A stretch of 64,000 nt of DNA from an uncultured Pseudomonadota bacterium (GCA_949286215.1 CASDYX010000014.1:18373-82372); one strand, 5' to 3'. Counted from the stretch's first letter, positions 40,325 to 52,610 are shown. Numbers and translations: made by a program. The notes: generated by a model not told the origin, from the letters alone.

Positions 40325-40979
40325 GATTTGTTTCTTTCCAGTTAATTAAGGCTTGGTCATAAGCCTCTTCCACCCAGTCAATATTTGTTTTTTTGCAGAT
40401 TGCGGGATTGCCGGCAAACATAGCATGTTCTGTTGACAAATCTTTGGTAACAATAGCACCGATGGCAAGAATAACATTGTCACAAATATGACAGTTTTTC
40501 AAAACCTTAACAGCTTCTCCAAGCCATACATGATTTCCGATAACAATTTCTTTTCCCTGATTAAGCGGCTTTTTTGATAAGGGGTCTATCACCGCATGAA
40601 AATCAGAGCAATAAAGCCTAGTTTCTTTGGCAAACATACAGCCTTCGCCAATAATAACCTGACTGTTATTTTCTTGCAAAACAATATCTGTGCCCATAAA
40701 GCCGGTTTTCAGTCCGACTTTGACTAAAGTGTTAGATGCTCTGATATCCAAATGTAGTTTTCCGTAACATCCTGCAGGCAAAATGACGGTGTTATTATTT
40801 CCCGTAATATTAATGTCTGTAAATTTCAGATAGTTAGGACCACCGATGTCAACTTTATTATTATTGCCATCAATTTTAAGAGAACCGTATTTCAAAAGTT
40901 CATTACGGCAATCTTTGGGAGTAATAAAGGAATTATTTTCGCCCTTGATAATGAATCTCTTTTTTCGAAACAATCTCAT
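40311..40979 (-). CDS. Hexapeptide-repeat O-acyltransferase, tandem paralog
   Basis: SDFHAV, IGNHVWLGE and FAGNPA motifs; same architecture as its neighbour. Confidence 0.88.
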   Translation of the reverse strand: MRLFRKKRFIIKGENNSFITPKDCRNELLKYGSLKIDGNNNKVDIGGPNYLKFTDINITGNNNTVILPAGCYGKLHLDIRASNTLVKVGLKTGFMGTDIVLQENNSQVIIGEGCMFAKETRLYCSDFHAVIDPLSKKPLNQGKEIVIGNHVWLGEAVKVLKNCHICDNVILAIGAIVTKDLSTEHAMFAGNPAICKKTNIDWVEEAYDQALINWKETNHETL

Positions 40980-41218
40980 AAGTTTTTATCTCCCAAGCAT
41001 TTACAAGCATAATCTCGATAAATGCGCAGTTGTTTTTGCAAAATATTGCAACGCCTTGAATGCAGACGATACTTTGCACTCTCTTTGGTATAGTTATAGC
41101 AAAGACGCTCCAAAGAGGGCAAGTAAGAAATATCACTTTTGAGAGGAAATACGTCGAATTTTAATTCTTTTTCCCAAAGAGCTTCAACACTTAAATGAAA
41201 ATAACCATTATCCGCCAT
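40976..41218 (-). CDS. Small hypothetical protein
   Basis: 80-aa ORF; start and stop overlap both neighbours. Confidence 0.5.
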   Translation of the reverse strand: MADNGYFHLSVEALWEKELKFDVFPLKSDISYLPSLERLCYNYTKESAKYRLHSRRCNILQKQLRIYRDYACKCLGDKNL

Positions 41219-41838
41219 TATTGTTCAGCCCAAACGATTCGGTTAATGAGCTTAATGTCTGTCATTTTCACTTGGACTTCTTGGTTTGGATTTAATATAT
41301 CACCAAACACGATTGTAGATGTTGTCCTATGCTTAAATTCTTTAATTAAAGGATTTCCTTGTTGCATTAGTACAATGACGCGGTCTCCTTTTCTGATTTC
41401 CAAATCTTTGGTAGCCACCAAAGTACAACCTTTTCGGTAAAGCGGTTCAAAATCGGCCGTGTCTAAATTAATGGCATAGAGGTTCACACTGCTGTCCGGA
41501 AATTGAACCTTATCCCACTTTTCTGTAACCAGTTTAGATGTTTTAATTGCAGCTTTAGTCGATAAATCCGAATAAGTAATAAAGGGAATCCCTGCAGGTT
41601 TAATGGTTAAATCTTCATCAATGAGTTGATAGAATTGTTCAAAAGAGACATTGCAGGCTTCCAAAATTTTATTAATGCTGTCAAGAGAAGGCCAGCGTTG
41701 TTTCCCGTCATTGCGAATTCTTTTGCTCTTATTAAAAGTTGTGGCGTCCAGACCGGCTTTTTTAGCCAATCCAGAAGGGGTTAAGCCGTGTAATTTTGCC
41801 AACTTATCAACAGCATCCCAAACTTGTTCATATTGCAT
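41218..41838 (-). CDS. XRE-type HTH + degenerate S24 domain repressor (CI/LexA-like)
   Basis: VWDAVDKLAK.HGLTPSGLAKKAGLDATTFNKSKR...RWPS HTH; C-terminal FEPLYRKG...GDRV..KEF S24-like fold lacking a clear catalytic Ser. Confidence 0.85.
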   Translation of the reverse strand: MQYEQVWDAVDKLAKLHGLTPSGLAKKAGLDATTFNKSKRIRNDGKQRWPSLDSINKILEACNVSFEQFYQLIDEDLTIKPAGIPFITYSDLSTKAAIKTSKLVTEKWDKVQFPDSSVNLYAINLDTADFEPLYRKGCTLVATKDLEIRKGDRVIVLMQQGNPLIKEFKHRTTSTIVFGDILNPNQEVQVKMTDIKLINRIVWAEQ

Positions 41839-41898
41839 TGTTCCTCCTTATTTTCTCAGATTTTTGCGAGAGTAAAACTACTATACAATAAAAAATCT

Positions 41899-41935
41899 TA
41901 GGAATCAATTCTTTTTTATGTTGAAATTCCTACAA
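41899..41935. promoter_or_regulatory. Putative repressor operator region
   Basis: TAGGAA-tcaa-TTCTT (41899-41913) and half-site TTCCTACAA (41927-41935); the motif recurs at 42727-42744. Confidence 0.5.
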
Positions 41936-41955
41936 CCTAATATATAACAGATAAA

Positions 41956-41971
41956 GTTAACGATTAGTTAA
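41956..41971 (-). promoter_or_regulatory. CtrA-box consensus
   Basis: Minus strand reads TTAA-CTAATCG-TTAAC (TTAA-N7-TTAAC), ~30 bp upstream of 42001. Confidence 0.5.
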
Positions 41972-42000
41972 AATAGAATATCAACACTGGGGGTTACTAA

Positions 42001-42336
42001 ATGCGAGAGGATTATGAACCTTTTGAAAACGCCGAAGAGGTCTGGTTTTGGTTTTGTGGTTGTATTATGGCAAGAGATGGAGGGTTGCGCTCTTGTAATG
42101 ATTTCAAAGGAAAAATCAGAAATTGTGAAGTAGCGGATATTTATCGTATCATCAAGAAGATGAAGCTAAATCATCAAATCACCAATCGCCACCTTCGTGT
42201 AATGGTTAAATGGGGACAGCTAGAGTGCTCGCCTTATTATCACTATCGCGCCAAAAGGAGTGAAATCAGACTCTGGGATGAAGGTTTACATGCGCTGGAA
42301 GGCTGGCTCTTGTCAAAGGGAATAATTACTCTATGA
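42001..42336 (+). CDS. Hypothetical protein, candidate activator/antiterminator of the cluster
   Basis: 111 aa, divergent from the repressor; PF..AEE.WFW...CE..DI...H..V...G...W...L..LE..L..KGI pattern that I recall from Rhodospirillales proteins (unverified). Confidence 0.6.
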   Translation: MREDYEPFENAEEVWFWFCGCIMARDGGLRSCNDFKGKIRNCEVADIYRIIKKMKLNHQITNRHLRVMVKWGQLECSPYYHYRAKRSEIRLWDEGLHALEGWLLSKGIITL

Positions 42337-42746
42337 GGTTAGATATCTTTGCTCCCAAGGCTTGTGAGCAATGTTATGTTGTCTTTGCCGATAATACCAC
42401 TTTGTGGTGGCTAAGGCTCCTCAAGCCCGGATTCAGGCATTGCTATATTTTGCTAAAGCTCAGAGGAAGAGGGCTCTGGGTCGAGCTTAATCCTTTGTCA
42501 AATCAAACAGCCATATTTGTTTATGAATATCCAGACACTTTTGATTTTGCTGATTATATTCGAAGGAGTCGCAATGTAATTTTGTGCCCGATAGATATAG
42601 CACAAGCCCCGCTCAAATGTGCACCGTTATCTTTTTTTACCTGTGTTGAATTTGTCAAGCGTGTGATAGGGCTACACGATTGTTTCATCCATACGCCGTG
42701 GCAACTTTATAAAAAAATATTAAAAATTGTAGGAAAAAGTTCTTGA
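42333..42746 (+). CDS. Hypothetical protein, possibly permuted papain-like (His...Cys)
   Basis: ATGA overlap with the upstream gene; GFRHCYI and FTCVEFVKRVIG motifs. Confidence 0.6.
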   Translation: MRLDIFAPKACEQCYVVFADNTTLWWLRLLKPGFRHCYILLKLRGRGLWVELNPLSNQTAIFVYEYPDTFDFADYIRRSRNVILCPIDIAQAPLKCAPLSFFTCVEFVKRVIGLHDCFIHTPWQLYKKILKIVGKSS

Positions 42747-42771
42747 CAAACGAAAAAAAATTTGCTACATA
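42727..42771 (+). promoter_or_regulatory. Promoter of the virion operon, overlapped by an operator-like motif
   Basis: TTGACA at 42743-42748 with weak -10 (CTACAT/TACATA); TTGTAGGAA-aaag-TTCTT overlaps the -35. Confidence 0.55.
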
Positions 42772-42813
42772 CAAAAACGCCACTTGCTATTAGTGTGTCC
42801 AAAGCAAAGTTAG

Positions 42814-42848
42814 ATTCGCAAGACATCAAGTCTTAGCGAATTTTTTTT
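42814..42848 (+). terminator. Leader intrinsic terminator ahead of terS
   Basis: 11-bp stem ATTCGCAAGAC/GTCTT(A)GCGAAT followed by a T8 run. Confidence 0.65.
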
Positions 42849-42878
42849 ATACCCAAAACCTGTAAGAAAGGAGTTAAA

Positions 42879-43196
42879 ATGCATTTCAAAAAGGCCAAGA
42901 CCTTAAAGTCCTTAAAGAAAAACTTGCAAAAGACTCTTCCCGAAAAGGTTTCACAGGTGTTAGAAAGTTATGAAACATTTTCGGAAAGACCAATCCCCGA
43001 AGATGCCAAAGGCTTTAGTGCACACCACAGCGCCTGCAAATCAGCGGTAACGCATGCAGAAACATTATTAAAGCTGGCTAAGTGGACCGAAGGCGAAACG
43101 TCTGAAAGCACAACTTCATCGGGCACGGAAGATATTCTAAAATTGCTTGCGGAAGCGAGAGCGGAATTGGACGGTGCGGAAGATGAAACAGATTAG
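42879..43196 (+). CDS. Probable terminase small subunit
   Basis: 105-aa helical protein with AAGGAG RBS, overlapping the terL start; assigned by position. Confidence 0.55.
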   Translation: MHFKKAKTLKSLKKNLQKTLPEKVSQVLESYETFSERPIPEDAKGFSAHHSACKSAVTHAETLLKLAKWTEGETSESTTSSGTEDILKLLAEARAELDGAEDETD

Positions 43197-44670
43197 TTTT
43201 TACGAGTTTATTTTCATCTGGTTCAAACTGCAAAATCTGAAAGTCCCGAAACACCAACGCAAAATAGCCAAGTGGCTGAGCTCACTTTGGCAAAACGAGC
43301 AAGACCGCCAAGGATTACTGATGGCATTTCGTAACTCAGGCAAATCCACCATTGTCGGTCTATTTTGTGCATGGGTCTTATATACCAAACCCTCAACCAG
43401 AATTTTGGTAATGGCAGCAGACCACGCTTTAGCCAAGAAAATGGTACGCAATGTCAAACGTATTATAGAGCAGCATCCGCTAACCCAACAGCTCAAACCC
43501 GAAAAATTGGAGCAATGGGCATCCGACCAATTTACCATTAGGCGAGATATGGAGTTACGCGACCCATCAATGTTGGCCAAAGGAATAGGGGCTAATATCA
43601 CGGGCTTGCGTGCCGACTTGATAATTTGTGATGACGTCGAGGTTCCCAAAAACTGCGATACACCTCTCAAACGGATTGAACTAAGGGAAAAACTCGAGGA
43701 GTTGGACTATATTCTAACGCCCGAGGGCATGCAGTTATACATCGGAACACCGCATACGTTTTATACCATTTATCAGGTGGACTATGATAATTCACGTCCG
43801 GAGATCGAGCCGTTTTTGCTTAATTTCAAAAAATTGGAAATTCCGATTTTAGATAAGAAAAATCAAAGCAGTTGGCCTGAGCGTTTTTCGGTAGAGAAAA
43901 TTGCCTCTCTTCGCCAACGTTCGGGAGAAAATAAGTTTTTGTCGCAGATGATGTTGCAACCTGTTAATTTCAGAGATTGCATACTCAATCCGGAAAGACT
44001 GTGTGTTTACAATTTGGAACTCACACAAACTTATGCCAACGGTCGAGAGGTTTTGCACTTGGGTGATAAAAAATTGCTTTCGGCATCTTGCTGGTGGGAT
44101 CCGTCTTTTGCCTCCTCATCGGGAGACAACAGCGTTATCGCTTGTGTCTTTACCGATGAAGATGGTAAGTTCTGGCTTCATGATATTGAATATATCAAAC
44201 TATCGGCTCAGTCGCAAGACAATCAAGCTTCGCTCCAATGTGAAAAGGTCGCTGATTTTATTGAGAGAAATCACCTGCCGTCCATTCGGGTAGAAGCCAA
44301 CGGTATTGGTAAGTTCTTACCCGGTATCTTAAAGCAAACCCTGCAAAGGCGCAAGATTCGAACAGCGGTTTTAGAGATGTATTCATCCACCGGCAAAGCC
44401 GCCCGTATTTTAGAGGCTTTTGAAGTTTTGCTGGCCGATAGGGCACTTAATGCGCATCGCCGAATATGGAACACGCCGTTTATTGAAGAAATGCGGGAGT
44501 GGAATACCGAAGGCAGCGTTCATGATGATGGTTTAGACGCGGTTGCCGGTTGTTTGTCATCTGAGCCGATACGTTTCACACAAGCTTATGCTGATATGGG
44601 CGACTATAAACGTTTCTCTTGGCAGGGAACTTCCGGTCAGTTTAAGGCGCAAACCAATTTTAGCATATAA
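43183..44670 (+). CDS. terL: Terminase large subunit (T7-like)
   Basis: Walker A LMAFRNSGKST, Walker B LIICDDVE, GTPH coupling motif, nuclease WWDPS and HDDGLDA. Confidence 0.92.
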   Translation: MKQISFYEFIFIWFKLQNLKVPKHQRKIAKWLSSLWQNEQDRQGLLMAFRNSGKSTIVGLFCAWVLYTKPSTRILVMAADHALAKKMVRNVKRIIEQHPLTQQLKPEKLEQWASDQFTIRRDMELRDPSMLAKGIGANITGLRADLIICDDVEVPKNCDTPLKRIELREKLEELDYILTPEGMQLYIGTPHTFYTIYQVDYDNSRPEIEPFLLNFKKLEIPILDKKNQSSWPERFSVEKIASLRQRSGENKFLSQMMLQPVNFRDCILNPERLCVYNLELTQTYANGREVLHLGDKKLLSASCWWDPSFASSSGDNSVIACVFTDEDGKFWLHDIEYIKLSAQSQDNQASLQCEKVADFIERNHLPSIRVEANGIGKFLPGILKQTLQRRKIRTAVLEMYSSTGKAARILEAFEVLLADRALNAHRRIWNTPFIEEMREWNTEGSVHDDGLDAVAGCLSSEPIRFTQAYADMGDYKRFSWQGTSGQFKAQTNFSI

Positions 44671-44681
44671 GGAATAAAACC

Positions 44682-44969
44682 ATGTTTAATGAATTGATAA
44701 ATTGGATGGCAATGATTGAAATACCGTTGTTTGTTGCGGTTTTTCGAATGTTGGTCAAACAAAGAAAAGAAATGGAGGAACAACTCCTAGCCACTCAAAA
44801 TCATACGGAGGGTAGAGTTGATATCTGTAAAGAATCATTAGCAGATTTCAAATTACATGTTGCCAGAAACTATGTTTCCACGGGCTACCTGAAAGATGTT
44901 GAAAACCGTTTAACCAATCACTTATTGAGAATTGAGAAAAAACTCGATGAAGTCGGGAGGTCAAGATGA
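44682..44969 (+). CDS. Holin-like or lysis accessory protein
   Basis: One N-terminal TM plus coiled coil ending RIEKKLD; directly upstream of the endolysin. Confidence 0.5.
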   Translation: MFNELINWMAMIEIPLFVAVFRMLVKQRKEMEEQLLATQNHTEGRVDICKESLADFKLHVARNYVSTGYLKDVENRLTNHLLRIEKKLDEVGRSR

Positions 44970-45382
44970 GTGAAGATTTGGACACATTAGCCCGTACGAT
45001 TTATGGGGAGGCACGAGGCGAGAGCATATCCGGAATGGAAGCTGTCGCCTCAGTTGTTTTAAATCGCTTGGCTTTCAGCCGAAGAAAAGGACGTTATTGG
45101 TGGGGCAATACGATTAAAGGCATATGTCGTTGTCCCTACCAATTTTCGTGTTGGAACAAGTCAGATTCCAACTATGCTCTGATACAAAGGGTTACAGATA
45201 CGGATATTATTTTTTGTATTTGCAAACGCATTGCAGGCAGAGCAATTTCTGGGGTTTTGGAAGATAATACGGCACATGCCACGCATTATCATACCAAAAA
45301 CACCAATCCTTCTTGGTCAAGGGGAAAAATTCCCTGTGCCGAGATAGGTCGTCATCTCTTTTACAATGATATTGAGACATAA
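44966..45382 (+). CDS. Cell wall hydrolase (SleB/Hydrolase_2), probable endolysin
   Basis: LARTIYGEARGE, VVLNR, PYQFSCWN, ATHYH and IGRHLFY motifs. Confidence 0.9.
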   Translation: MSEDLDTLARTIYGEARGESISGMEAVASVVLNRLAFSRRKGRYWWGNTIKGICRCPYQFSCWNKSDSNYALIQRVTDTDIIFCICKRIAGRAISGVLEDNTAHATHYHTKNTNPSWSRGKIPCAEIGRHLFYNDIET

Positions 45383-45742
45383 ATGATTTTTAAAACAAAG
45401 GCACCGATGACGCTGATGAAACTCATGCGTCATTTTTTTTGTGGCAGCGCGCTTGAAAGACGAAAGAGGCATGGTTCGTCTTGGGAGTGCAATTGGCGTC
45501 CGCTTTTTGGCTATTCGGTATGTCTGACATGGGTTTTGCAAATGAGCACGATATGTTGGGTTGTCTGGATAAATCACCCTCGAGCGGAAAAAATTATTAT
45601 GGCACTTGTTGAAACAACATCACTTTGGAGTATGGCTTTGGGTGTTATGGGAATTTCAGTGGTTAAAAGTCCCAACTTTACCGAGAAAAAATCTCAAACC
45701 TCAAAGTCATCTTCAAAGTCAAATCAAACACCCAACAACTGA
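45383..45742 (+). CDS. 3TM-type holin-like protein
   Basis: WRPLFGYSVCLTWVLQM followed by hydrophobic helices and a basic tail. Confidence 0.65.
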   Translation: MIFKTKAPMTLMKLMRHFFCGSALERRKRHGSSWECNWRPLFGYSVCLTWVLQMSTICWVVWINHPRAEKIIMALVETTSLWSMALGVMGISVVKSPNFTEKKSQTSKSSSKSNQTPNN

Positions 45743-45753
45743 AAGGAAAAACA

Positions 45754-45975
45754 ATGGGAGGAGTATTTAAAGTATTCAGCACACCAAAAATAAAACAACC
45801 GATTATTCCGGTAGTTGATACAGAGGCAGAAGCTCAAAAAAATGCCGAGCAAGAAAAACAAGAAAATATTGAACGTCAACGCCGAGGTCAAGAAGGTACA
45901 ATTCGCACATCATATAATGGCATTTTGGGAGAAAAGGAAGACAACCTAAAACGCAAAAACCTCTTGGGAGAATAG
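45754..45975 (+). CDS. Small virion protein preceding the portal
   Basis: 73 aa, MGG start, RRRG..GTI.TS..G...LLG pattern typical of podoviral pre-portal genes. Confidence 0.55.
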   Translation: MGGVFKVFSTPKIKQPIIPVVDTEAEAQKNAEQEKQENIERQRRGQEGTIRTSYNGILGEKEDNLKRKNLLGE

Positions 45976-45977
45976 AC

Positions 45978-47477
45978 ATGGAGCAGCAACTCGAAACCTT
46001 GGTCAGTCGCTACAAAAAGGCTGCCGAGAGAAAACAAAATTGGGAGGAACATTGGCGCGAATGCTATGAATATGCTTTTCCGCTCAGAGAAAATGTTAGC
46101 TCTTTTGGTGTTGACTCGCCGCAAGGCACCAAGAAAAACTTATGCTTGTTTGATGGTACGGCACCTGATGCGGTTGACCAATTAGCTTCTTCCTTGCTTT
46201 CCGAATTAACCCCTCCTTGGGCAAAGTGGTTTGGTCTCAGACCGGGCAATGAACTAAGCCCGACCGAGCAAGAGCAAGTTGCCCCGATTTTGGATAAATC
46301 TTCAGAAATTATGCTGCAAAACTTTGAGCACTCTAATTTTGCAGTCGAAGTTCATCAATGCTATCTAGATTTGGTAACAGTTGGTACGGCTTGTTTAATG
46401 TTTGAGGAGGCAGCAATTGGAGAGGCTACGGCATTTCACTTTTACGCGGTTCCCTTAAGAGAAATAGCCATAGAGGAAAGTTCGGATGGAAAAATTGATA
46501 CCACGTTTCGTTGCTCCAAACTTAATTTGGAAGGCATACGCACACGTTTTCCCGAAGCCCAAATGCCATCTTTCTTGCAGGAACGCCTAGAGCAAGACCG
46601 TGACTATCAGTTAAGCATTATAGAAGCTGTCTTGCCCAGAAATTACAATGCCGGTGCTTGTGGCTATGATTACATAGCTTTTGCTTGGGATGAAAACAGC
46701 GGTTATGAAGAGAGTTGTATCTTAAAAGAAGGTATTTTTGAAACCTCTCCCTTTATCAACTTTCGTTGGCTCAAGGCTCCGGGAGAAATTTATGGCCGCT
46801 CACCGGTTATGAAAGCTCTGCCGGATATTAAGACCGCCAACAAAGTCGTGGAGTTAATTTTGAAAAATGCCTCCATTTCGGTAACCGGAATTTGGCAAGC
46901 AGATGACGACGGCATCTTAAATCCTGATAACATCAAACTTGTTCCCGGAGCAATCATTCCTAAGGCGGTGGGCTCAAAAGGCTTAACTCCGCTGAGTGCT
47001 CCTGGCAATTTTGATGTTTCTCAGCTTATTCTTTCGGATTTACGTCAAAGAATAAACCATGCATTGCTGGCGGATAGACTGGCTCAAATTGCCACTCCGA
47101 ATATGACAGCTACGGAAGTTTTGGAGCGTTCGGCAGAAGTTGCAAGAATCTTAGGCGCCACATTTGGACGCCTGCAATCAGAATTGCTGACCCCGCTCTT
47201 GAAGCGAGCATTTCAAATTTTACGACGTCGTGGTGATATTCCGAATTTTGACTTAGACGGGAAAATTGTTGATCTGCAGTATAAATCACCTCTGGCTTTG
47301 GCACAAACCCGCAAGGACATTACCAATGTCAGTGAGTGGGTGTCAATGCTTGCCACCTTTGGGACAGACGCTTTAAATGCCGTCAATGTGGAAGAAGCCT
47401 CCAGATGGTTAGGCAAAACCCTTTGTGTCCCCTCTCAGTTGATAAGGGAAACACCGCTCGCCTCTGAGGCAAAGTAG
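45978..47477 (+). CDS. Portal (T7 gp8-like head-tail connector)
   Basis: LFDGTAPDAVDQLASSL..ELTPP..KWF, RW.K.PGE.YGRSP and MTATEVLER motifs. Confidence 0.92.
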   Translation: MEQQLETLVSRYKKAAERKQNWEEHWRECYEYAFPLRENVSSFGVDSPQGTKKNLCLFDGTAPDAVDQLASSLLSELTPPWAKWFGLRPGNELSPTEQEQVAPILDKSSEIMLQNFEHSNFAVEVHQCYLDLVTVGTACLMFEEAAIGEATAFHFYAVPLREIAIEESSDGKIDTTFRCSKLNLEGIRTRFPEAQMPSFLQERLEQDRDYQLSIIEAVLPRNYNAGACGYDYIAFAWDENSGYEESCILKEGIFETSPFINFRWLKAPGEIYGRSPVMKALPDIKTANKVVELILKNASISVTGIWQADDDGILNPDNIKLVPGAIIPKAVGSKGLTPLSAPGNFDVSQLILSDLRQRINHALLADRLAQIATPNMTATEVLERSAEVARILGATFGRLQSELLTPLLKRAFQILRRRGDIPNFDLDGKIVDLQYKSPLALAQTRKDITNVSEWVSMLATFGTDALNAVNVEEASRWLGKTLCVPSQLIRETPLASEAK

Positions 47478-47489
47478 CGGAGCAAGAGA

Positions 47490-47711
47490 ATGCAACCGTA
47501 TGATACCCGACACATGTCGGAAGCACAGATTCGTGAAGCATTTGTAAAATGCTTTTCGAGTAGGGAAGGGAGAATAGTCCTCTCTTACCTAAAACGTCTG
47601 ACACAGGAGCGATATTTGGGACCCGAAAGTTCTTCTGATGCATTGCGTCATCTGGAAGGGCAAAGACATCTGGTTTCAATAATTCAAAACAAGATATCAG
47701 ACGATAATTAA
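47490..47711 (+). CDS. Bbp19-like phage protein
   Basis: F.SREGRIVLSYL...LRHLEGQRHLV, located between portal and scaffold. Confidence 0.7.
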   Translation: MQPYDTRHMSEAQIREAFVKCFSSREGRIVLSYLKRLTQERYLGPESSSDALRHLEGQRHLVSIIQNKISDDN

Positions 47712-47729
47712 TCAAAGAAAGGAAAAAAC

Positions 47730-48452
47730 ATGAAAGAAAGACCAGTTGAAAATCTCAACGAAATGAATCTTGCAGCAGCTCAGAGTTCAGGTCCTTCAGC
47801 CCCGGCACAAGGGAAACCGGCAAATTTGCCGCCCAAATTCTGGGATGAAGCTACCCAAACAATAAAACTGCAAGAATTGATTGATGACTATAACTCTATG
47901 GCCATGAGAGATGAAAATCTGATAGAAACGCACAACCGCAATATGCCGGAAAGCTATGATAAATATCAGATAAAAATCCCAAATGAATTGTTGGATCATG
48001 ATGAAGAATTGTTCAAACAGTTTTATGAGCATGGCTTTACCAATGACCAAGCACAATTTGTCTATGACTTGGCCAATGAACGAGTCATTCCGGTTCTAGA
48101 CCAATTGACCGTAAATTTTGAGGCTCAAAAACAGCTTGCCAAGCTGACCAATTACTTTGGAGGCAGAGAGAGATTTGATGAAGTTTCTCGCCAAATTTCA
48201 GCTTGGGCAAAACAAAATTTGAGCGGGGACGTCTATGACGCTTTGGGCTCCACAGCCGAAGGCGTAATAGCCTTGTATAAGATGATGTCGTCTAACGAAC
48301 CTCTTCTTAGCAAAGATAATGGCTATGAAGGAGGGTTAAACGAACAAACCTTACGCAAGATGATGGAAGATCCACGTTACTGGCGAGATAAAGACAGTGC
48401 TTATATCAATAAGATTACGCGCGGATTTGAAAAACTCTACCCTGAAAAATAA
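47730..48452 (+). CDS. Capsid assembly scaffolding protein
   Basis: LPPKFWD, acidic helical body, C-terminal MMEDPRYWRDKD; immediately upstream of the capsid gene. Confidence 0.78.
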   Translation: MKERPVENLNEMNLAAAQSSGPSAPAQGKPANLPPKFWDEATQTIKLQELIDDYNSMAMRDENLIETHNRNMPESYDKYQIKIPNELLDHDEELFKQFYEHGFTNDQAQFVYDLANERVIPVLDQLTVNFEAQKQLAKLTNYFGGRERFDEVSRQISAWAKQNLSGDVYDALGSTAEGVIALYKMMSSNEPLLSKDNGYEGGLNEQTLRKMMEDPRYWRDKDSAYINKITRGFEKLYPEK

Positions 48453-48472
48453 ACCTTTTCAGGGCTTTTTTT
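48440..48472 (+). terminator. Intrinsic terminator between scaffold and capsid genes
   Basis: CCCTGAAAA/TTTTCAGGG stem plus T7. Confidence 0.55.
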
Positions 48473-48502
48473 ATATAGGTTAATCACAAATAGGAGGAAA
48501 AT

Positions 48503-49342
48503 ATGTCAACACAAATAACCGAATCCTTTATCAAACAATTTGAAGCTGATGTTCACTTGGCTTACCAACAAAACGGCTCAAAATTGAGAAATGCGGTTCG
48601 CACCAAAAACAATGTTAAAGGCTCATCCACCGTCTTCCAAAAAGTCGGCAAAGGTATGGCTTCACAAAAGGCACGCCACGGCTTGGTTCCGGTAATGTCT
48701 TTGGACCACACGCCGATTGAGTGCGAACTTCAAGACTACTATGCCGGCGATTGGGTAGATGCTTTGGATGAATTAAAAGTAAGCATTGATGAGCGCCGTG
48801 TTATTGCCAATTCCGGTGCTTATGCCTTGGGTCGCAAAACCGATGAATTAATTATTGATGCCTTGAGCAAAGCTCCCGAAGACAACGATGTCGGTGATTA
48901 TGGCTTGGCTATGAGCAAAAAGGATATTTTGGATGCTTTTGCCAAATTAAACTCTAACGATGTTCCCGATGACGGACAACGTTTTGGTTTGGTAGGTCCT
49001 TACCAATGGAATGCATTGCTCAACATTGCCGAGTTCTCAAATTCTGATTATGCCGGCGACAATCTGCCGTTCTTAAAAGGAACCGAGAGCCGTAAATGGT
49101 TGGGCATCAACTGGATTATGCACACCGGTTTGCCTTTAAGCGGAACAGAGCGTCAATGCTTTATTTTCCATAAAACAGCAGTCGGACATGCCTGCGGACA
49201 AGATGTCAAAAGCGATATCACCTGGCACGGTGACCATGCCGCACACTTCGTCAATAATATGATGAGCCAAGGCGCATGCTTAATCGACCCGACCGGTGTC
49301 GTTCGCATTAAGTGCAAAGAAGAATCTTCAATCAGCGAATAA
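48503..49342 (+). CDS. Major capsid protein (HK97 fold, podoviral)
   Basis: FIKQFEADVHLAYQQ.GSKLR, AYALGRKTDELII and WLGINWIMH motifs; strong GGAGG RBS; 279 aa. Confidence 0.88.
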   Translation: MSTQITESFIKQFEADVHLAYQQNGSKLRNAVRTKNNVKGSSTVFQKVGKGMASQKARHGLVPVMSLDHTPIECELQDYYAGDWVDALDELKVSIDERRVIANSGAYALGRKTDELIIDALSKAPEDNDVGDYGLAMSKKDILDAFAKLNSNDVPDDGQRFGLVGPYQWNALLNIAEFSNSDYAGDNLPFLKGTESRKWLGINWIMHTGLPLSGTERQCFIFHKTAVGHACGQDVKSDITWHGDHAAHFVNNMMSQGACLIDPTGVVRIKCKEESSISE

Positions 49343-49353
49343 GGAGAAAGAAA

Positions 49354-49611
49354 ATGTCGTTTATGTCAAAAGATTTTAGTGTAATGGCCTATGCCAATGG
49401 TTTTACACTTTGGAACTATTCTTCATCTGATGCATTAGCCACCATCAAAGGAGCAAATTACTTTGATGATATTGCGCCATTTGCTCGTGTAGGAGATATG
49501 ATTTTGACGGTAGCCGATAATCAAAGCACGGTTGCACCGGCCATTTTGGCGGTCACATCAATTGTAGACGGAGCTGTGAGCGTATCAGAGTTAGGCTCTG
49601 CTGCGGCATAA
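49354..49611 (+). CDS. Small virion protein (possible capsid decoration)
   Basis: 85 aa, AAGGAG RBS, YANGFTLWNY...NYF...RVGDMI. Confidence 0.6.
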   Translation: MSFMSKDFSVMAYANGFTLWNYSSSDALATIKGANYFDDIAPFARVGDMILTVADNQSTVAPAILAVTSIVDGAVSVSELGSAAA

Positions 49612-49639
49612 AATCACCAACACATTAATAGCAAAGGCG

Positions 49640-49675
49640 GGAGAAACCTTTTCATTAAAAGGTTTCTCCTTTTTT
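49640..49675 (+). terminator. Intrinsic terminator after the capsid genes
   Basis: Perfect 13-bp stem GGAGAAACCTTTT/AAAAGGTTTCTCC plus T6. Confidence 0.75.
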
Positions 49676-49691
49676 ATCAATGGAGAAATTC

Positions 49692-50261
49692 ATGAGTTAC
49701 ACCAACATAGGAATCTGTTCCAACGCATTATTAAAAATTGGTGCGGAAGGCATCACCTCGTTTGAAGACGGCACGGCGGAAGCAGAAATAGCCTACAGCT
49801 TGTATCCTCTGATTCGCGATAGCTTGCTGTCCTCATATCCGTGGAGTTTTGCCAAAGCGCAAAAAACTTTACCGCGATTAAATGATGTCCCGGTGGCTGA
49901 TTATCAGTATGCTTACTTATTGCCCAATGATTTTTTAAGAGTAATTTCTGCCGGTAACGGACGTAGAGGGCGGGGCATAGAATATCGCATTTACGAAAAT
50001 AGACTTCATACCAATTCAGAAAATGTAAGTCTGAGTTATATCTTTCGTCCGCATGAAAGTACTTTTCCGGCATTTTTCTGCGAGGCACTAATTTCCAAAT
50101 TAGCGGCAGAATTTTGCTTGCCCTTAACCGAGAGCACCACCCGTGCCGAGTTGTTAGAAAAACTAGCCGAAGAAACCATCAATAAAGCACGTCTGGTTGA
50201 TGCGCAACAAGGAACCCCCAGAACATTGGAAGACTATTCATTAATGGAGGCGAGGTTATGA
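49692..50261 (+). CDS. Tail tubular protein A (T7 gp11-like adaptor)
   Basis: ICSNALLKIGA..I, YP..RD.LL..YPWSFA, Y.LP.DFLR and F..ALISKLAAE motifs. Confidence 0.82.
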   Translation: MSYTNIGICSNALLKIGAEGITSFEDGTAEAEIAYSLYPLIRDSLLSSYPWSFAKAQKTLPRLNDVPVADYQYAYLLPNDFLRVISAGNGRRGRGIEYRIYENRLHTNSENVSLSYIFRPHESTFPAFFCEALISKLAAEFCLPLTESTTRAELLEKLAEETINKARLVDAQQGTPRTLEDYSLMEARL

Positions 50262-52159
50262 GTAATTTAGGTTCAGTAAAAACCAATTTTACGGCAGGAC
50301 AGGTTTCCATAGATTTGTTAGGTCGGGGTGATTTGCGGGTTTATGCCAACGGAGCGAGGCACCTTGAAAATGTAATAATTCATCCGACCGGTGGAGTTTC
50401 GCGCCGAAGAGGACTAAAGTTCATCAGCAAGATAGAAAAGCCCATGCGTCTTTTGCCGTTTGAATTTAATACCGAGCAAATATATTTATTGTGTTTGACA
50501 GATAATAAATTGCAGGTTCTAAAGGACGATAAGGTCATTGCCGAATTAGAAACACCGTGGGCAGGGGAACAATTGTTTCAGTTAAACTACACCCAAAGCG
50601 CCGATACATTTTTGATAGTTCACCCCGATGTTCCGCCCAAACAAATCACGCGTAACAATAACGAGGTTTGGAAAATTGAAGATTGGGAATATTATACGAA
50701 GGACGATATGATTTATATGCCTTACTATAATTTCTATCAGAAAAAGCCCAAACTTAAATCGAGCGGCAGTAGCGGGACTGTAACCATGACTTGCGATACG
50801 GATGTGTGGTTTGCAAGCCATGTCGGGAGTTATATTAACTTTCAAAAAGGCCTGGCAAAAATAACCGAAGTAACCGATTCCAAAGTTGTTCAAGCGCAAG
50901 TTATTAAAAGTTTTAGTTCATCCAGTCAAACCAATGATTGGTCAGAGTCAGCGTTTTCTAATGCCAGAGGTTGGCCTGTCTCTGTAACCTTCCATCAAAA
51001 CCGGATGGTAATAGGTGGTTCAAGGGATTTGCCTAACCGTCTATGGTTATCCAAATCATCAGATTTGTTTAACTTTGACTTAGGTACGGCGCTTGATGAT
51101 GAAGCGATAGAATTTGGAATTTTATCTGACCAGGTAAATGCCATCAAGGCGGTAGTTTCTTCCAGACACTTACTAGTGTTTACCACCGGTGCCGAGTGGA
51201 TGGTTACTGGCGAGCCTTTAACTCCTGAAAAAATCCAACTCAAACGTCAAACCAATGTTGGCATTTATTCGGAGAAAGTTTTGGCTCCCCAACAAATTGA
51301 TGGAGCAACGGTATTTGTTTCCAGAAGTGGCAGACAATTAAGAGAGTTTCTCTATACCGATGTTGAGCAAGCCTATCAAGCTAAGGACTTAACAATTCTA
51401 TCTAATGATATTATTCAGTCTCCACGAGATATAGGCTTTGACCAAGATGCTTGTGTTTTATATCTGGTTTTGGAAGATGGAACGATTTCTTGCCTTACAA
51501 CTTATCGCACAGAGGAAGTAACGGCTTGGAGTAAATTAACAACATCTGGAAAATTTTTATCCGTTGCCGTAATTGGTACCGAAATTTATTTTTGTGTGCA
51601 GCGCGCTAACGGTTATTTTCTGGAGAAACTAGCAGATGATTATTATTCTGATTGCGCCATACGCCTTACATCAGAAGTAGCACAAAGAGAGTGGGGTGGG
51701 CTTGAAAATCTGGAAGGAGAGAAGGTTGTTGTTCTGGCCAATGGCTTTAGTTTAGGTGAATTTCAGGTAGAAGAGGGAGAAATACACCTCTTAGATGAAG
51801 CAACTGAAATTTTGGTCGGTATCCCCTATGAACATTGGATAGAACCTCTGCCATACATGGTAGAGAGTGAAAGGCCATATTCTCCGAAAGCACTAAGAGT
51901 AATCAATGCACGCTTTCGAATTATAAATTCCAAATCTTTGTGTATTGATATTGGCGGTGGATATTTCCAATATCCATTAAAAAGAATTCATCAGGATCAG
52001 ATTTTTGATGCTCCGCCAATGACTTATTCAGGAGATGTGCAGATGAGAGCTTTAGGCTGGATAAGAGATATGAATAAACCGATGTGGAGTATAAAAAGTA
52101 ATGAGCCTTTGGCTTTTACGCTTTTATCCGCAGTAGTAGAAATAAAACTCAAAGAATAA
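50258..52159 (+). CDS. Tail tubular protein B (T7 gp12-like nozzle)
   Basis: NFTAGQVS...GR.D, GG..RRRG, FHQNRMVIGG..P.RLWLS and W.KL.T.G.F motifs. Confidence 0.85.
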   Translation: MSNLGSVKTNFTAGQVSIDLLGRGDLRVYANGARHLENVIIHPTGGVSRRRGLKFISKIEKPMRLLPFEFNTEQIYLLCLTDNKLQVLKDDKVIAELETPWAGEQLFQLNYTQSADTFLIVHPDVPPKQITRNNNEVWKIEDWEYYTKDDMIYMPYYNFYQKKPKLKSSGSSGTVTMTCDTDVWFASHVGSYINFQKGLAKITEVTDSKVVQAQVIKSFSSSSQTNDWSESAFSNARGWPVSVTFHQNRMVIGGSRDLPNRLWLSKSSDLFNFDLGTALDDEAIEFGILSDQVNAIKAVVSSRHLLVFTTGAEWMVTGEPLTPEKIQLKRQTNVGIYSEKVLAPQQIDGATVFVSRSGRQLREFLYTDVEQAYQAKDLTILSNDIIQSPRDIGFDQDACVLYLVLEDGTISCLTTYRTEEVTAWSKLTTSGKFLSVAVIGTEIYFCVQRANGYFLEKLADDYYSDCAIRLTSEVAQREWGGLENLEGEKVVVLANGFSLGEFQVEEGEIHLLDEATEILVGIPYEHWIEPLPYMVESERPYSPKALRVINARFRIINSKSLCIDIGGGYFQYPLKRIHQDQIFDAPPMTYSGDVQMRALGWIRDMNKPMWSIKSNEPLAFTLLSAVVEIKLKE

Positions 52160-52169
52160 AGGAGGAACC

Positions 52170-52568
52170 ATGGGAGAGTTAATGACGGCTCAAAATGCAA
52201 GTAAGGGAGCAAGCAGTACTCAAGAAATTTATAATATGATTGAAGACAATAAAAATCTTCGAGATAATTATGAGCTTAATCAATATAATCTCGTTCACAA
52301 ACAACGCTCCAATCACTTGAAAAAACAAAATATCCTAGAGGAGAACCTAGCCAAACGCCGAGCGCGTGTGGCGGCAATGGGTATGAGCGGCGATGGTTCT
52401 GCTTCTGCCGAACAAAAAAGAGAAGCCTATGAAGGATATAAAGATATTGCGGAAGATGATTACGATTATTATCAGCAATATAAAACCAACAGGGTTAACA
52501 CAAAATATAAAATTCGCAGCAATGCGGTAAATGGTATTTTAAATGCGACCCAAAGCCTACTCAAATAA
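52170..52568 (+). CDS. Putative internal virion (ejection) protein
   Basis: 132 aa helical, RARVAAMGMSGDGS motif; last gene before the terminator. Confidence 0.5.
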   Translation: MGELMTAQNASKGASSTQEIYNMIEDNKNLRDNYELNQYNLVHKQRSNHLKKQNILEENLAKRRARVAAMGMSGDGSASAEQKREAYEGYKDIAEDDYDYYQQYKTNRVNTKYKIRSNAVNGILNATQSLLK

Positions 52569-52574
52569 AAAAAC

Positions 52575-52610
52575 AACTCCGCCGTTTTACGGCGGAGTTA
52601 TTTTTTTTTT
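52575..52610 (+). terminator. Terminator ending the virion operon
   Basis: AACTCCGCCGT/ACGGCGGAGTT stem plus long T run. Confidence 0.8.

What the first reader, a model, noticed from the sequence alone, without database searches (positions are those of the whole stretch)
41218..52568. Candidate new gene transfer agent built from a T7/BPP-1-like podovirus module
Seen: a compact single-strand operon of terS, terL, holin-like gene, SleB endolysin, 3TM holin, small virion gene, portal, Bbp19-like gene, scaffold, capsid, decoration-like gene, tail tubes A/B and one ejection-like gene. All frames are intact with good RBSs. There is no integrase, excisionase, polymerase, helicase, RNA polymerase, recombinase, att repeat or cargo, and the flanks are ordinary host genes. 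Established: this structure-only, host-regulated layout defines GTAs, but RcGTA and the Caulobacter GTA are siphoviral. Inference: an independently domesticated, short-tailed podoviral GTA that packages host DNA. I recall similar clusters in Rhodospirillales genomes, but this is unverified.
Basis: partly seen in the sequence, partly recalled or inferred. Interest (0 to 1): 0.9.

Follow-up and report, generated by a model that had tools for sequence, protein, structure and literature searches.

The report
Domesticated short-tailed phage cluster, candidate GTA
A gut alphaproteobacterium carries an 11.6-kb set of phage head, short-tail, DNA-packaging and lysis genes that has been inherited vertically and kept intact across Rhodospirillales-type bacteria, which makes it a strong candidate for an undescribed family of gene transfer agents.

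Summary
Window 40976..52599 holds a divergent repressor, two orphan early genes, and 15 intact T7/BPP-1-type packaging, lysis, head and short-tail genes. Ordinary chromosomal genes flank it. There is no integrase, replication gene or att repeat.

The host is not Bartonella but an uncultured gut Rhodospirillales-affiliated lineage. In related gut species the cluster sits at the same locus. Its tree matches the flank tree (r=0.99, 9/10 splits) and dN/dS is 0.01-0.45 for every gene.

The same gene set occurs in Azospirillum brasilense, Magnetospirillum, Caenispirillum, Terasakiella and others. There it lies in host contexts shared across genera, often split by inserted host genes.

A conserved cassette of promoter, leader box and terminator follows the two early genes. 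It is duplicated wherever the operon is split, which points to antitermination control.

Free-living lineages keep a cleavable LexA/CI-type repressor and a GTTC-N7-GTTC box. The gut clade has lost the catalytic Ser and carries TTAA-N7-TTAA instead.

The two early genes are absent from 50,697 phage genomes. Large ejection proteins are missing everywhere, and tail fibres are missing in the gut clade.

Domestication is well supported. DNA packaging and transfer are untested. I found no published description.

The parts
40976..41218 (-). Small gene (80 aa) immediately downstream of, and overlapping, the repressor gene. Function unknown.
   Evidence: ORF. A small co-oriented gene of 87-109 aa lies after the repressor in L085, L167, L168 and L170. 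Weak tblastn hits in gut relatives. No Pfam or PHROG family.
41218..41838 (-). CI/LexA-like repressor: an N-terminal Cro/C1 HTH plus an S24-like C-terminal domain that has lost the catalytic Ser and the Ala-Gly cleavage site.
   Evidence: HTH_26 1e-4, Peptidase_S24 1e-4 (below cutoff) and phrog_4. The alignment shows GDSMEP, K and AQ^AG in free-living relatives but LDTADFEP and no A-G in the window and gut clade.
41880..41971 (.). Divergent promoter/operator region. It holds the palindrome TAGGAATCAA...TTGAAATTCCTA (41899-41932), which overlaps both -35 elements; the g111 promoter TTGAAA(41921)-16-TATAAC(41943); the repressor promoter TTGATT-17-TATAGT on the minus strand; and TTAA-N7-TTAA at 41957-41971.
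   Evidence: Sequence. A ~60-nt block is nearly invariant across gut species whose flank proteins are only ~55% identical. The minus-strand promoter was listed by the scan. TTAA-N7-TTAA is present in 25/25 gut-clade loci, with only 3 sites in the 64-kb window.
42001..42336 (+). Early gene g111 (111 aa): an orphan family, candidate late-gene regulator.
   Evidence: It sits next to the repressor and g137 in 68 of 80 loci. No Pfam or PHROG family. No hit in 50,697 phage genomes. The AF2 model has pLDDT 84 with no Foldseek match in PDB or BFVD. dN/dS 0.015-0.054.
42333..42746 (+). Early gene g137 (137 aa), translationally coupled to g111. It has invariant RHC and CVE..K motifs and is the candidate antiterminator or co-regulator.
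   Evidence: Alignment A1. 2,473 representatives at E<=1e-3. No phage-genome hit. AF2 pLDDT 86 with no PDB fold match. Linked to a portal gene in 77 of 79 IMG/VR loci.
42743..42848 (+). Late-control cassette. It consists of TTGACA (42743-42748, overlapping the g137 stop codon), TACATA (42766-42771), the conserved leader box AACGCCACTTGCTATTAGTGTGTCCAAAGC (42776-42805), and an intrinsic terminator hairpin plus T8 (42814-42848) about 30 nt before terS.
   Evidence: Sequence and alignment. A terminator-like hairpin follows g137 in 63/73 loci, against 13-46% at most other junctions. The same promoter-box-terminator order is seen in free-living relatives. It is duplicated before the capsid gene in 6 loci where host genes split the operon and was tool-confirmed in L167.
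42879..43196 (+). Putative small terminase subunit (105 aa).
   Evidence: phrog_31793 4e-42, unknown function. The assignment rests on its position, overlapping the start of TerL.
43183..44670 (+). Large terminase subunit, T7-like.
   Evidence: Terminase_6C, Terminase-T7_RNaseH-like and phrog_38 2.5e-81. Gene call of 495 aa. Best isolated-phage match is 32%.
44682..44969 (+). Membrane-anchored coiled-coil protein (95 aa) in the lysis module; holin- or spanin-like, unproven.
   Evidence: phrog_29007. It has an N-terminal hydrophobic segment and is conserved beside SleB in relatives.
44966..45382 (+). SleB-type cell-wall hydrolase (endolysin).
   Evidence: Hydrolase_2 2e-20 and phrog_938 endolysin. 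45% identical to the homologue in pelagiphage Hodr.
45383..45742 (+). Membrane protein with 2-3 hydrophobic segments; candidate holin.
   Evidence: GTA_holin_3TM E=0.0035, below cutoff. The Telmatospirillum homologue gives a weak hit to the same family.
45754..45975 (+). Small protein (73 aa) that always precedes the portal gene; MGG(F)F...LLGE family.
   Evidence: phrog_831. Present before the portal gene in gut and free-living loci.
45978..47477 (+). Portal protein, T7 gp8 type.
   Evidence: Head-tail_con 5e-138. Full length in 79/79 untruncated loci. Chromosomal relatives are 55-98% identical, but the best isolated phage is only 37%.
47490..47711 (+). Bbp19-like protein.
   Evidence: PF25181 1.7e-12.
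47730..48452 (+). Scaffolding protein, T7 gp9 type, followed by a terminator-like hairpin at 48440-48464.
   Evidence: Phage_T7_Capsid 2.8e-18. Terminator scan.
48503..49342 (+). Major capsid protein.
   Evidence: Phage_capsid_2 1.5e-76 and phrog_3437. dN/dS 0.009-0.020. 44% identical to pelagiphage Hodr.
49354..49611 (+). Small post-capsid protein (85 aa), possibly a head decoration protein, followed by a strong terminator at 49639-49670.
   Evidence: phrog_18004. 14-bp stem terminator. A terminator follows this gene in 67% of loci.
49692..50261 (+). Tail tubular protein A / adaptor, gp11-like.
   Evidence: phrog_394 1.4e-50 and a weak Pfam Tube match.
50258..52159 (+). Tail tubular protein B / nozzle, gp12-like.
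   Evidence: Phage_nozzle 1.4e-9 and phrog_376 6.6e-148.
52170..52568 (+). Small coiled-coil protein (132 aa) that always follows the nozzle gene. It is the fastest-evolving gene of the cluster. It occupies the position of the small proteins that follow the nozzle gene in T7-type phages (159 aa in Hodr).
   Evidence: Positional orthologues share RAR..A.G....GS..AVL and RNLL motifs. 78% identity to L001, where neighbouring genes are 95-100%. No family hit.
52575..52599 (+). Intrinsic terminator that closes the operon.
   Evidence: Stem of 11 pairs (7 GC) plus a T-run, the top hit of the scan.

Best explanation
This is a domesticated remnant of a T7/BPP-1-type podovirus. Selection has maintained it as a host gene cluster since before the radiation of several Rhodospirillales families. 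Most likely it is a gene transfer agent.

Proposed mechanism (inferred):

1. A CI-like repressor binds a palindromic operator over two divergent promoters and silences the early genes g111 and g137.
2. When repression is lifted, g111 and g137 are made.
3. They act at a conserved promoter-proximal leader box so that RNA polymerase reads through the terminator just before the first structural gene, and through the internal terminators after the scaffold and post-capsid genes.
4. Terminase, portal, scaffold, capsid and short-tail proteins assemble DNA-filled particles.
5. The SleB hydrolase and membrane proteins lyse the producer cell.

The element has no replication, integration or large ejection genes, so it cannot spread as a virus. 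The DNA it packages would be host chromosome.

Free-living lineages appear SOS-coupled: they have a cleavable repressor and a GTTC-N7-GTTC box. In the gut clade of the window the repressor has lost its catalytic Ser and cleavage site, and a TTAA-N7-TTAA (CtrA-type) box sits at the early promoter. That suggests rewired control.

Shown here: gene content, conservation, vertical inheritance, purifying selection and the regulatory DNA architecture. Inferred: antitermination by g111/g137, particle formation, host-DNA packaging and transfer.
For: - Gene families.
- Fixed locus with the same host flanks in gut species.
- Cluster versus flank distances: r=0.99, 0/2000 Mantel permutations, 9/10 shared NJ splits. 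The cluster evolves at 0.74x the flank rate.
- dN/dS is 0.01-0.45 for all cluster genes, with no in-frame stop codons in five relatives.
- Key genes are full length in nearly all untruncated loci.
- The same gene set lies next to host genes in Telmatospirillum, Terasakiella, A. brasilense, a Magnetospirillum gryphiswaldense MAG and an alphaproteobacterial MAG. None has an integrase or replication gene nearby.
- Upstream host genes (LysRS, class IV aminotransferase, FabI+MetZ) are shared across genera. Portal and flank distances correlate: r=0.75-0.86, Mantel <=1/5000.
- Different host genes are inserted between the scaffold and capsid genes in different lineages. The promoter-box-terminator cassette is re-created before the capsid gene in those loci.
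- g111 and g137 are absent from 50,697 phage genomes. The best isolated-phage portal, capsid and TerL matches are only 37, 44 and 32%.
- IMG/VR hits to the capsid are all contigs of 4-21 kb; a few contigs that hold g137 are longer (up to 94 kb).
- The nearest free phage carries 783- and 1247-aa genes after the nozzle gene that this element lacks.
- A terminator follows g137 in 86% of loci.
- Antitermination control is established for two other GTAs: GafYZ (PMC11150451) and BrrG (bioRxiv 10.1101/2024.11.20.624540).
- RcGTA-like clusters were found in 0% of Rhodospirillales and Azospirillales genomes (PMC6821227).
Against: - There is no evidence here on what DNA is packaged, or whether particles form or transfer genes.
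- The gut clade has no tail-fibre gene in the cluster or in the 64-kb window, so adsorption is unexplained. Free-living relatives do have fibre-like genes.
- If the capsid keeps the size of its 34-kb phage relative, it could hold the entire 11.6-kb cluster. That differs from RcGTA.
- g111 and g137 have no detectable similarity to any known regulator, so their assigned role rests on position and on the cassette.
- TTAA-N7-TTAA might be bound by something other than CtrA.
- My terminator finder is permissive: background is 13-46% at most other junctions (53% after g111 and after sleB).
- Prevalence within the host clades, meaning the fraction of genomes lacking the element, was not measured.
Confidence: 0.6

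Rival explanations
1. It is a domesticated defective phage kept for a function other than gene transfer. One model is B. subtilis PBSX, a defective phage reported to package host DNA and kill sensitive cells (my recollection, not checked here). Other possibilities are programmed lysis with DNA or public-goods release, or a decoy against related phages.
For: All the domestication evidence applies equally. The missing large ejection proteins everywhere, and the missing fibre in the gut clade, fit particles that do not deliver DNA into the cytoplasm. The lysis module is conserved.
Against: Terminase, portal and the full head pathway are under strong purifying selection, so DNA packaging itself is selected. 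I know of no podovirus-type killer particle (my recollection). RcGTA is reported to rely on the recipient's competence machinery for DNA import (my recollection, not checked here), so a missing ejectosome would not exclude transfer.
Confidence: 0.2
2. It is a helper-dependent satellite, like a capsid-forming PICI. It would borrow fibres, ejection proteins and replication from a co-resident podophage and move between cells.
For: The element makes heads and a tail stub but lacks the fibre (gut clade) and ejection proteins. Phage-like relatives with a primase next to a g137-like gene exist (L221).
Against: There is no integrase, primase or att site. The chromosomal position is fixed and the cluster is co-phylogenetic with flanking genes. 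Host genes are inserted inside the cluster, which would disrupt a unit that had to be packaged as one piece.
Confidence: 0.06
3. It is a cryptic prophage remnant decaying neutrally, or an intact temperate phage.
For: The gene content is phage-derived, the repressor is CI-like, and GC is higher than in the flanks.
Against: dN/dS is 0.01-0.45 in every gene, with no stop codons, across species whose flank proteins have diverged by up to 46%. Non-coding control elements are conserved across families. There are no replication, integration or ejection genes, and no phage genome in 50,697 carries g111 or g137.
Confidence: 0.04

Closest known systems
RcGTA-like GTAs (Rhodogtaviriformidae; Rhodobacter capsulatus)
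   Same: A structure-only, phage-derived cluster in the chromosome that is vertically inherited and under purifying selection. It has higher GC than the host average, and a CtrA-type box is plausible at the early promoter in the gut clade.
   Different: RcGTA is siphovirus-like, with small oblate heads that hold about 4 kb (PMC9662315). This element has T7-type portal, scaffold, adaptor and nozzle families instead. The regulators are unrelated. RcGTA-like clusters were found in 0% of Rhodospirillales and Azospirillales genomes (PMC6821227).
Caulobacter crescentus GTA control circuit (RogA repressor, GafY activator, GafZ antiterminator)
   Same: The logic matches. A repressor controls a two-gene early operon, whose products activate the structural cluster and let RNA polymerase bypass terminators inside it (PMC11150451). 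Here a repressor controls g111-g137, followed by a terminator and by internal terminators.
   Different: No sequence or fold similarity was detected: the PDB profile and Foldseek searches found no relative of any kind, but GafY/GafZ sequences were not compared directly. The repressor here is of the CI/LexA S24 type. The particle is podovirus-like.
BaGTA (Bartonella) BrrG Q-like antitermination
   Same: A promoter is followed by a leader that attenuates expression, and a processive antiterminator is needed to read through it (bioRxiv 10.1101/2024.11.20.624540).
   Different: The host here is not Bartonella. Foldseek found no PDB relative of g111 or g137; I assume Q-type antiterminator structures are in that library, which I did not verify. 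Sulfitobacter phages, which nest within BaGTA TerL (PMC9662315), are not among the 25 best-listed TerL matches. There is no run-off replication module.
FpGTA of Faecalibacterium prausnitzii
   Same: A gut bacterium with a GTA-like element inferred to be podovirus-like (PMC12946183).
   Different: It belongs to a different phylum, and its host-DNA packaging was shown experimentally. I made no homology test against it. It is organised as two loci. The present element is conserved across an order.
Pelagibacter phage EXVC031P Hodr (pelagiphage HTVC010P is also among the portal hits, 33%)
   Same: It is the closest isolated phage. It shares the portal (37%), capsid (44%), Bbp19 (47%), SleB (45%), adaptor (32%) and nozzle (36%), and, as judged from annotated gene sizes, the order terL-small gene-portal...capsid-small gene-adaptor-nozzle.
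   Different: The phage is 34.2 kb. It has 783- and 1247-aa genes after the nozzle gene and a full complement of early genes. It lacks the repressor, g111 and g137, and its TerL is not detectably similar.
R/F-pyocin control (PrtR S24 repressor, PrtN activator) and PBSX-type defective phages
   Same: In the pyocin system an SOS-cleavable CI-like repressor controls a small positive regulator, which then switches on a domesticated phage-derived structural cluster and lysis genes. This comparison comes from my own knowledge and was not tested here.
   Different: Pyocins have no head or terminase. g111 gave no Pfam hit of any kind.

Membership tests
Gene transfer agent (viriform) in the general sense | Phage-derived structural, packaging and lysis genes encoded in the cellular genome | tested here: met
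   Pfam and PHROG assignments. Chromosomal flanks.
Gene transfer agent (viriform) in the general sense | No genes for autonomous replication, integration or excision | tested here: met
   None in the window cluster or its flanks. None in five Pfam-annotated relatives. One IMG/VR contig (L239) has an integrase island nearby, separated from the cluster by a host MoaA gene.
Gene transfer agent (viriform) in the general sense | Vertical inheritance and co-evolution with the host under purifying selection | tested here: met
   Mantel r=0.99 and 9/10 shared splits. r=0.75-0.86 in three free-living groups. dN/dS 0.01-0.45.
Gene transfer agent (viriform) in the general sense | Particles contain essentially random host DNA and cannot transmit the full set of GTA genes | not testable with these tools
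   This needs sequencing of DNase-protected particle DNA. By analogy with the 34-kb phage relative, head capacity may exceed the cluster size.
Gene transfer agent (viriform) in the general sense | Delivery of packaged DNA to recipient cells | not testable with these tools
   No fibre gene in the gut-clade cluster, and no large ejection proteins in any lineage.
Gene transfer agent (viriform) in the general sense | Production controlled by host regulatory systems | tested here: inconclusive
   The element has its own repressor. TTAA-N7-TTAA is conserved in 25/25 gut loci, and GTTC-N7-GT[TA]C is present in 25/43 free-living loci. The proteins that bind these boxes are unknown.
Rhodogtaviriformidae (RcGTA-like) | Homologous head-tail cluster (RcGTA-type portal, prohead protease, HK97 capsid, siphovirus tail) | tested here: not met
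   Portal is Head-tail_con, scaffold is of T7 type, capsid is Phage_capsid_2, and there are adaptor and nozzle genes. No protease, tail tube or tape measure.
Bartogtaviriformidae (BaGTA-like) | TerL and capsid group with Bartonella homologues; linked run-off replication origin | tested here: inconclusive
   The host is not Bartonella. The Sulfitobacter phages that nest in the BaGTA TerL clade (PMC9662315) are not among the 25 best-listed TerL hits. No replication module is present. I made no direct comparison with BaGTA proteins.
Functional temperate podophage (prophage) | Integrase and att sites, replication module, complete virion gene set including ejection proteins and fibres | tested here: not met
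   Compare with pelagiphage Hodr.
Phage satellite (PICI / capsid-forming PICI) | Integrase, primase/replication initiator, att sites, mobility between sites | tested here: not met
   No such genes or repeats. The locus is fixed.
Lambdoid Q-type late control | Promoter followed closely by a terminator, with an antiterminator gene just upstream | tested here: met
   TTGACA-17-TACATA, the leader box and the terminator lie within ~105 nt after g137.
Lambdoid Q-type late control | Antiterminator protein homologous to Q-lambda, Q21 or Q82 | tested here: not met
   No PDB sequence or fold match for g111 or g137.

The most novel reading that the evidence does not exclude
This is an unrecognised, order-wide family of podovirus-derived gene transfer agents in Rhodospirillales/Azospirillales-type alphaproteobacteria, which are the orders that lack RcGTA-like elements. 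It is present in culturable models such as Azospirillum brasilense, Magnetospirillum and Caenispirillum, and in human and animal gut lineages. It would be run by a new two-protein antitermination system (g111/g137 plus a conserved leader box). It would be SOS-coupled in free-living hosts and rewired to a non-cleavable repressor plus a CtrA-type box in gut hosts.
Probability: 0.5. Interest if true: 0.9.

Novelty: new variant of a known kind. Interest (0 to 1): 0.8.

Why it matters
Few GTA families have been studied in detail. The best-known one (RcGTA-like) is absent from Rhodospirillales and Azospirillales.

A second, independently domesticated alphaproteobacterial family, built from a short-tailed phage, would extend GTA-type gene exchange to plant-associated, magnetotactic, marine and gut alphaproteobacteria. 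It would give a natural comparison for how phages are tamed: loss of replication and ejection genes, splitting by host genes with re-created control cassettes, and a switch of the induction signal. It would also add a new pair of candidate antitermination proteins with unknown folds.

It is directly testable because culturable, genetically tractable hosts carry it.

Tried and rejected
- **Bartonella BaGTA.** I suspected this first from the 38% GC. It is rejected: the best genomic matches are gut alphaproteobacterial MAGs and Rhodospirillales, and the listed TerL matches include no BaGTA-related Sulfitobacter phage.
- **Function of g111 and g137 by homology.** Nothing was found in Pfam or PHROGs, in PDB profile searches, with AlphaFold models plus Foldseek against PDB, or for g111 against BFVD (best E=0.16). 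My guess that g137 is a permuted papain-like peptidase is not supported by fold search. g111 is not related to the DnaA_C-like protein at the same position in L221.
- **att-type direct repeats** around the cluster: only chance-level matches.
- **Rfam:** only two tRNAs in the window, neither adjoining the cluster (the nearer, tRNA-Asp, starts about 4.3 kb beyond its terminator).
- **Other phage genes or a fibre gene elsewhere in the window:** none.
- **Literature.** Six searches found no description of this element. Azospirillum 'GTA' reports refer to RcGTA-like regions and ~10-kb particles (PMC3899980).
- **A -10-like pause element in the leader box.** TAGTGT fits the gut clade only, not the free-living relatives, so I do not claim it.
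- **Collection-wide scan for further leader-box copies.** I did not run it. With 14-16 specified bases, I estimated that chance matches would swamp the result.

Full report
**1. What is in the window**

The window has about 38% GC, and the cluster region has 42-44%.

On the plus strand, 42001..52568 holds 17 closely spaced genes, several of them overlapping. On the minus strand, 40976..41838 holds a repressor gene and a small co-oriented gene.

Pfam and PHROGs identify these products:

- a T7-like large terminase
- a SleB-type hydrolase
- a membrane protein with a sub-threshold GTA_holin_3TM match
- a T7-type portal (5e-138)
- a Bbp19-like protein
- a T7-type scaffold
- a Phage_capsid_2 capsid
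- tail tubular A
- the nozzle

The labels terS, holin-like, decoration-like and ejection-like rest on position only.

The surrounding genes are core chromosomal: ClpB, RNase E, PBP1a, RF2 and YhdP upstream; a carboxylesterase, an amino-acid-binding protein, MlaC and an M23 peptidase downstream. Nothing in the cluster or its flanks is an integrase or a replication gene. No tRNA adjoins the cluster, and no credible att-type direct repeat flanks it.

The boundaries should widen slightly, to 40976 on the left and to the terminator at 52575-52599 on the right.

**2. Who carries it**

I first suspected Bartonella BaGTA because of the GC content. That was wrong.

A scan of one genome per species found at least 568 genomes with a relative of the portal. 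The closest are uncultured gut alphaproteobacterial MAGs, with labels such as CAG:495, Candidatus Scatocola and 'uncultured Azospirillum'. NCBI places Ca. Scatocola in Rhodospirillales.

Next, at 55-60% portal identity, come Magnetospirillum, Phaeospirillum, Caenispirillum, Terasakiella, Telmatospirillum, Azospirillum and many MAGs.

**3. Vertical inheritance in the gut clade**

In the gut-clade loci whose flanks are held, the cluster lies between the same host genes.

I compared concatenated cluster proteins with concatenated flank proteins in the window and 12 loci.

- The distances correlate with r=0.99, and no Mantel permutation out of 2000 reached that value.
- The neighbour-joining trees share 9 of 10 splits.
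- The cluster evolves at 0.74 times the flank rate, while flank proteins diverge by up to 46%.

Against five relatives, every cluster gene has dN/dS between 0.01 and 0.45. Most are below 0.1, like the flanks, and none has an in-frame stop codon. Portal, capsid, terminase, adaptor and nozzle are full length in nearly all untruncated loci.

**4. The same element across Rhodospirillales**

Free-living relatives show this order:

- repressor on the minus strand
- then g111, g137, the small pre-portal gene, portal, Bbp19 and scaffold
- then capsid, the small post-capsid gene, adaptor and nozzle
- then the small post-nozzle gene (preceded by a fibre module in some lineages)
- then terS, terL, the membrane coiled-coil gene, SleB and the holin candidate

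The gut clade differs only in that the terminase-lysis block has moved in front of the pre-portal gene and the fibre module is gone.

The neighbours are host genes, and they are shared across genera:

- class I LysRS in 10 loci
- a class IV aminotransferase in 10 loci, next to sdhCDAB in A. brasilense
- FabI plus MetZ in 8 loci

Portal distances track these flanking genes, with r=0.81, 0.86 and 0.75 and at most 1 of 5000 Mantel permutations reaching the observed value.

Different host genes are inserted between the scaffold and capsid genes in different lineages:

- a metallo-beta-lactamase-fold gene and a chemoreceptor-like gene in Telmatospirillum and Terasakiella
- PAS-GGDEF-EAL and PRC genes in A. 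brasilense
- in a Magnetospirillum gryphiswaldense MAG the cluster is split, with no capsid-to-nozzle genes within the 10 kb held after the scaffold gene

**5. Relation to real phages**

g111 and g137 have no match in 50,697 phage genomes.

The best isolated-phage matches are weak: portal 37%, capsid 44% and TerL 32%.

IMG/VR contains at least 589 capsid relatives and 427 g137 relatives. The capsid-bearing contigs are only 4-21 kb. Most contigs that hold g137 are about 4-25 kb and usually begin at the repressor, though a few are longer, up to 94 kb.

The closest free phage is Pelagibacter phage Hodr, at 34.2 kb. It shares the SleB, portal, Bbp19, capsid, adaptor and nozzle genes. After the nozzle gene it has genes of 159, 783 and 1247 aa. 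The cluster keeps only a small gene at that position.

One IMG/VR contig (L221) looks like a genuine phage relative. It has a primase and other early genes on the same strand directly upstream of a g137-like gene and the portal gene, and no terminator cassette. This suggests that g137 is an ancestral phage gene sitting at the early/late boundary.

**6. Regulatory architecture**

The repressor-g111 intergenic region contains a ~60-nt block that is nearly invariant across gut species. Its features are:

- the palindrome TAGGAATCAA...TTGAAATTCCTA, which overlaps the -35 elements of two divergent promoters
- a TTAA-N7-TTAA box

TAGGAAY half-sites also occur in free-living lineages.

Immediately after g137 comes a second cassette:

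- TTGACA, overlapping the g137 stop codon
- TACATA, 17 nt further on
- a leader box, AACGCCAC...GTGTGTCCAAAGC
- an intrinsic terminator that ends about 30 nt before terS, which leaves no room for another promoter

The same order of promoter, box and terminator appears in free-living relatives. Parts of the box are shared between the gut clade and marine genera.

By my own scan, a terminator-like hairpin follows g137 in 63 of 73 loci. Most other junctions show 13-46%; the exceptions are after the post-capsid gene (67%) and after g111 and sleB (53% each). The stem sequences differ between loci, and some changes are compensatory.

A combined search for box plus TTGAC found 26 plus-strand sites and 3 minus-strand sites in about 1 Mb. 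Twenty lie before the pre-portal or portal gene. Six lie before the capsid gene, in loci where host genes split the operon. The tool scan of L167 confirms the promoter and hairpin there.

The window also has strong terminators after the scaffold and post-capsid genes.

This layout matches late control by antitermination. That mechanism is shown experimentally for the Caulobacter GTA (PMC11150451) and for BaGTA (bioRxiv 10.1101/2024.11.20.624540). g111 and g137 are the obvious candidates for the antiterminator, but that is an inference. Both give confident AlphaFold models (pLDDT 84 and 86) with no fold match in the PDB, and g111 none in BFVD. The g137 family has 2,473 representatives.

**7. 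A switch of the induction signal**

In free-living lineages the repressor keeps three LexA/CI features: the AQ^AG cleavage site, the GDSMEP serine and the lysine. In the window and the whole gut clade the serine and the cleavage site are gone; the window reads LDTADFEP.

The promoter boxes change in parallel. GTTC-N7-GT[TA]C, which I recall as the alphaproteobacterial LexA-box form, occurs in 25 of 43 free-living intergenic regions and in none of the gut ones. TTAA-N7-TTAA, which I recall as the CtrA-box form, occurs in 25 of 25 gut ones and in none of the free-living ones.

The window has only three TTAA-N7-TTAA sites in 64 kb.

I read this as a change from SOS coupling to another signal, possibly CtrA. 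The proteins that bind these boxes are unknown.

**8. Interpretation**

Together the data show a phage-derived cluster that the host lineage has kept for a long time for its own benefit. Neutral decay, an intact prophage and a mobile satellite are all contradicted.

The conserved terminase, portal, head pathway and lysis genes imply DNA-filled particles released by lysis. With no replication module, the only DNA available for packaging is the chromosome. That is a GTA in all but proof.

The open points are:

- what DNA is packaged
- head capacity, which may exceed the cluster size
- how particles without large ejection proteins, and in the gut clade without a fibre, deliver DNA

If, as I recall for RcGTA, the recipient's competence machinery can take up the DNA, delivery to the periplasm alone might suffice. 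A PBSX-like non-transfer role remains a serious rival.

**9. Novelty**

Six literature searches found no description of this element.

RcGTA-like clusters were reported in 0% of Rhodospirillales and Azospirillales genomes (PMC6821227).

A podovirus-like GTA-like element was reported in Faecalibacterium in 2026 and described as the first of that morphology (PMC12946183). So the morphology is not unprecedented. An alphaproteobacterial, order-wide family with its own control system would still be new.

I file it as a new variant of a known kind, with high interest because culturable hosts carry it.

Noticed in passing
L115 (IMGVR_UViG_3300028797_006173) 6500-20500, and about 45 similar IMG/VR loci (L089-L134): A related lineage (capsid 62-64% identical) has the large terminase split into two ORFs: an N-terminal ATPase of 201 aa and a C-terminal nuclease of 283 aa. 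Three minus-strand genes separate them: an unknown 219-aa gene, a double-HTH protein and a DnaB helicase. LipB lies upstream, and a 181-aa stub of the T7 fibre N-terminal domain follows the nozzle gene. The layout recurs in dozens of contigs.
   Followed up: partly
window 52170-52568 (also 45754-45975 and the 3' part of 50258-52159): The last gene is hypervariable. It is 78% identical to L001, where neighbouring genes are 95-100%, and its dS is 2.7 against 0.05-0.6. dS is mosaic along the cluster: ~0.05 for 42.9-45.7 kb, 0.35 for the portal gene and 0.5-0.6 for adaptor and nozzle. This suggests recombination between strains, or diversifying selection on a surface or recognition part.
   Followed up: partly
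window 52619-52633: A second of the only three TTAA-N7-TTAA sites in the 64-kb window lies just past the cluster's terminator, upstream of the carboxylesterase gene. I did not check its conservation in relatives.
   Followed up: no
L221 (IMGVR_UViG_3300022725_000237) 1-9700: A phage-like relative. It has a primase (DUF7146+Toprim), genes of 650 and 549 aa of unknown function, and a 148-aa protein with a weak DnaA_C-like HTH. These are followed by a g137-like gene, the small pre-portal gene and the portal gene, all on one strand, with no terminator cassette. It is a possible living relative of the ancestor.
   Followed up: partly
L239 (IMGVR_UViG_3300010211_000052) 400-12000: A primase/ORF6N/tyrosine-integrase island sits beside the element but is separated from it by a host MoaA gene. 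No repressor homologue was detected upstream of g111 in this locus.
   Followed up: no
L171 = MT838907.1 (5,084 bp): An 'UNVERIFIED: Bacteriophage sp.' scaffold from Mexican human faecal samples is the portal-to-capsid segment of a gut-clade relative (portal 70%, capsid 80%). So this DNA was deposited as a bacteriophage sequence. That could reflect particles or contamination.
   Followed up: partly
window 39665-40979 (-): Two tandem paralogous hexapeptide-repeat transferase genes lie between the conserved upstream flank and the element. Only some close relatives have them (L002, L004, L005, but not L001 or L003), so this is a recent indel next to the cluster.
   Followed up: no
L167 18454-20701; L168 17997-20055: Free-living relatives carry a fibre-like module after the nozzle gene. 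Terasakiella has a 501-aa protein with a weak phiTE_241_C match plus a 245-aa Laminin_G_3 protein. An alphaproteobacterial MAG has a 537-aa protein plus a tail assembly chaperone. This module is absent from the gut clade and from Telmatospirillum.
   Followed up: partly
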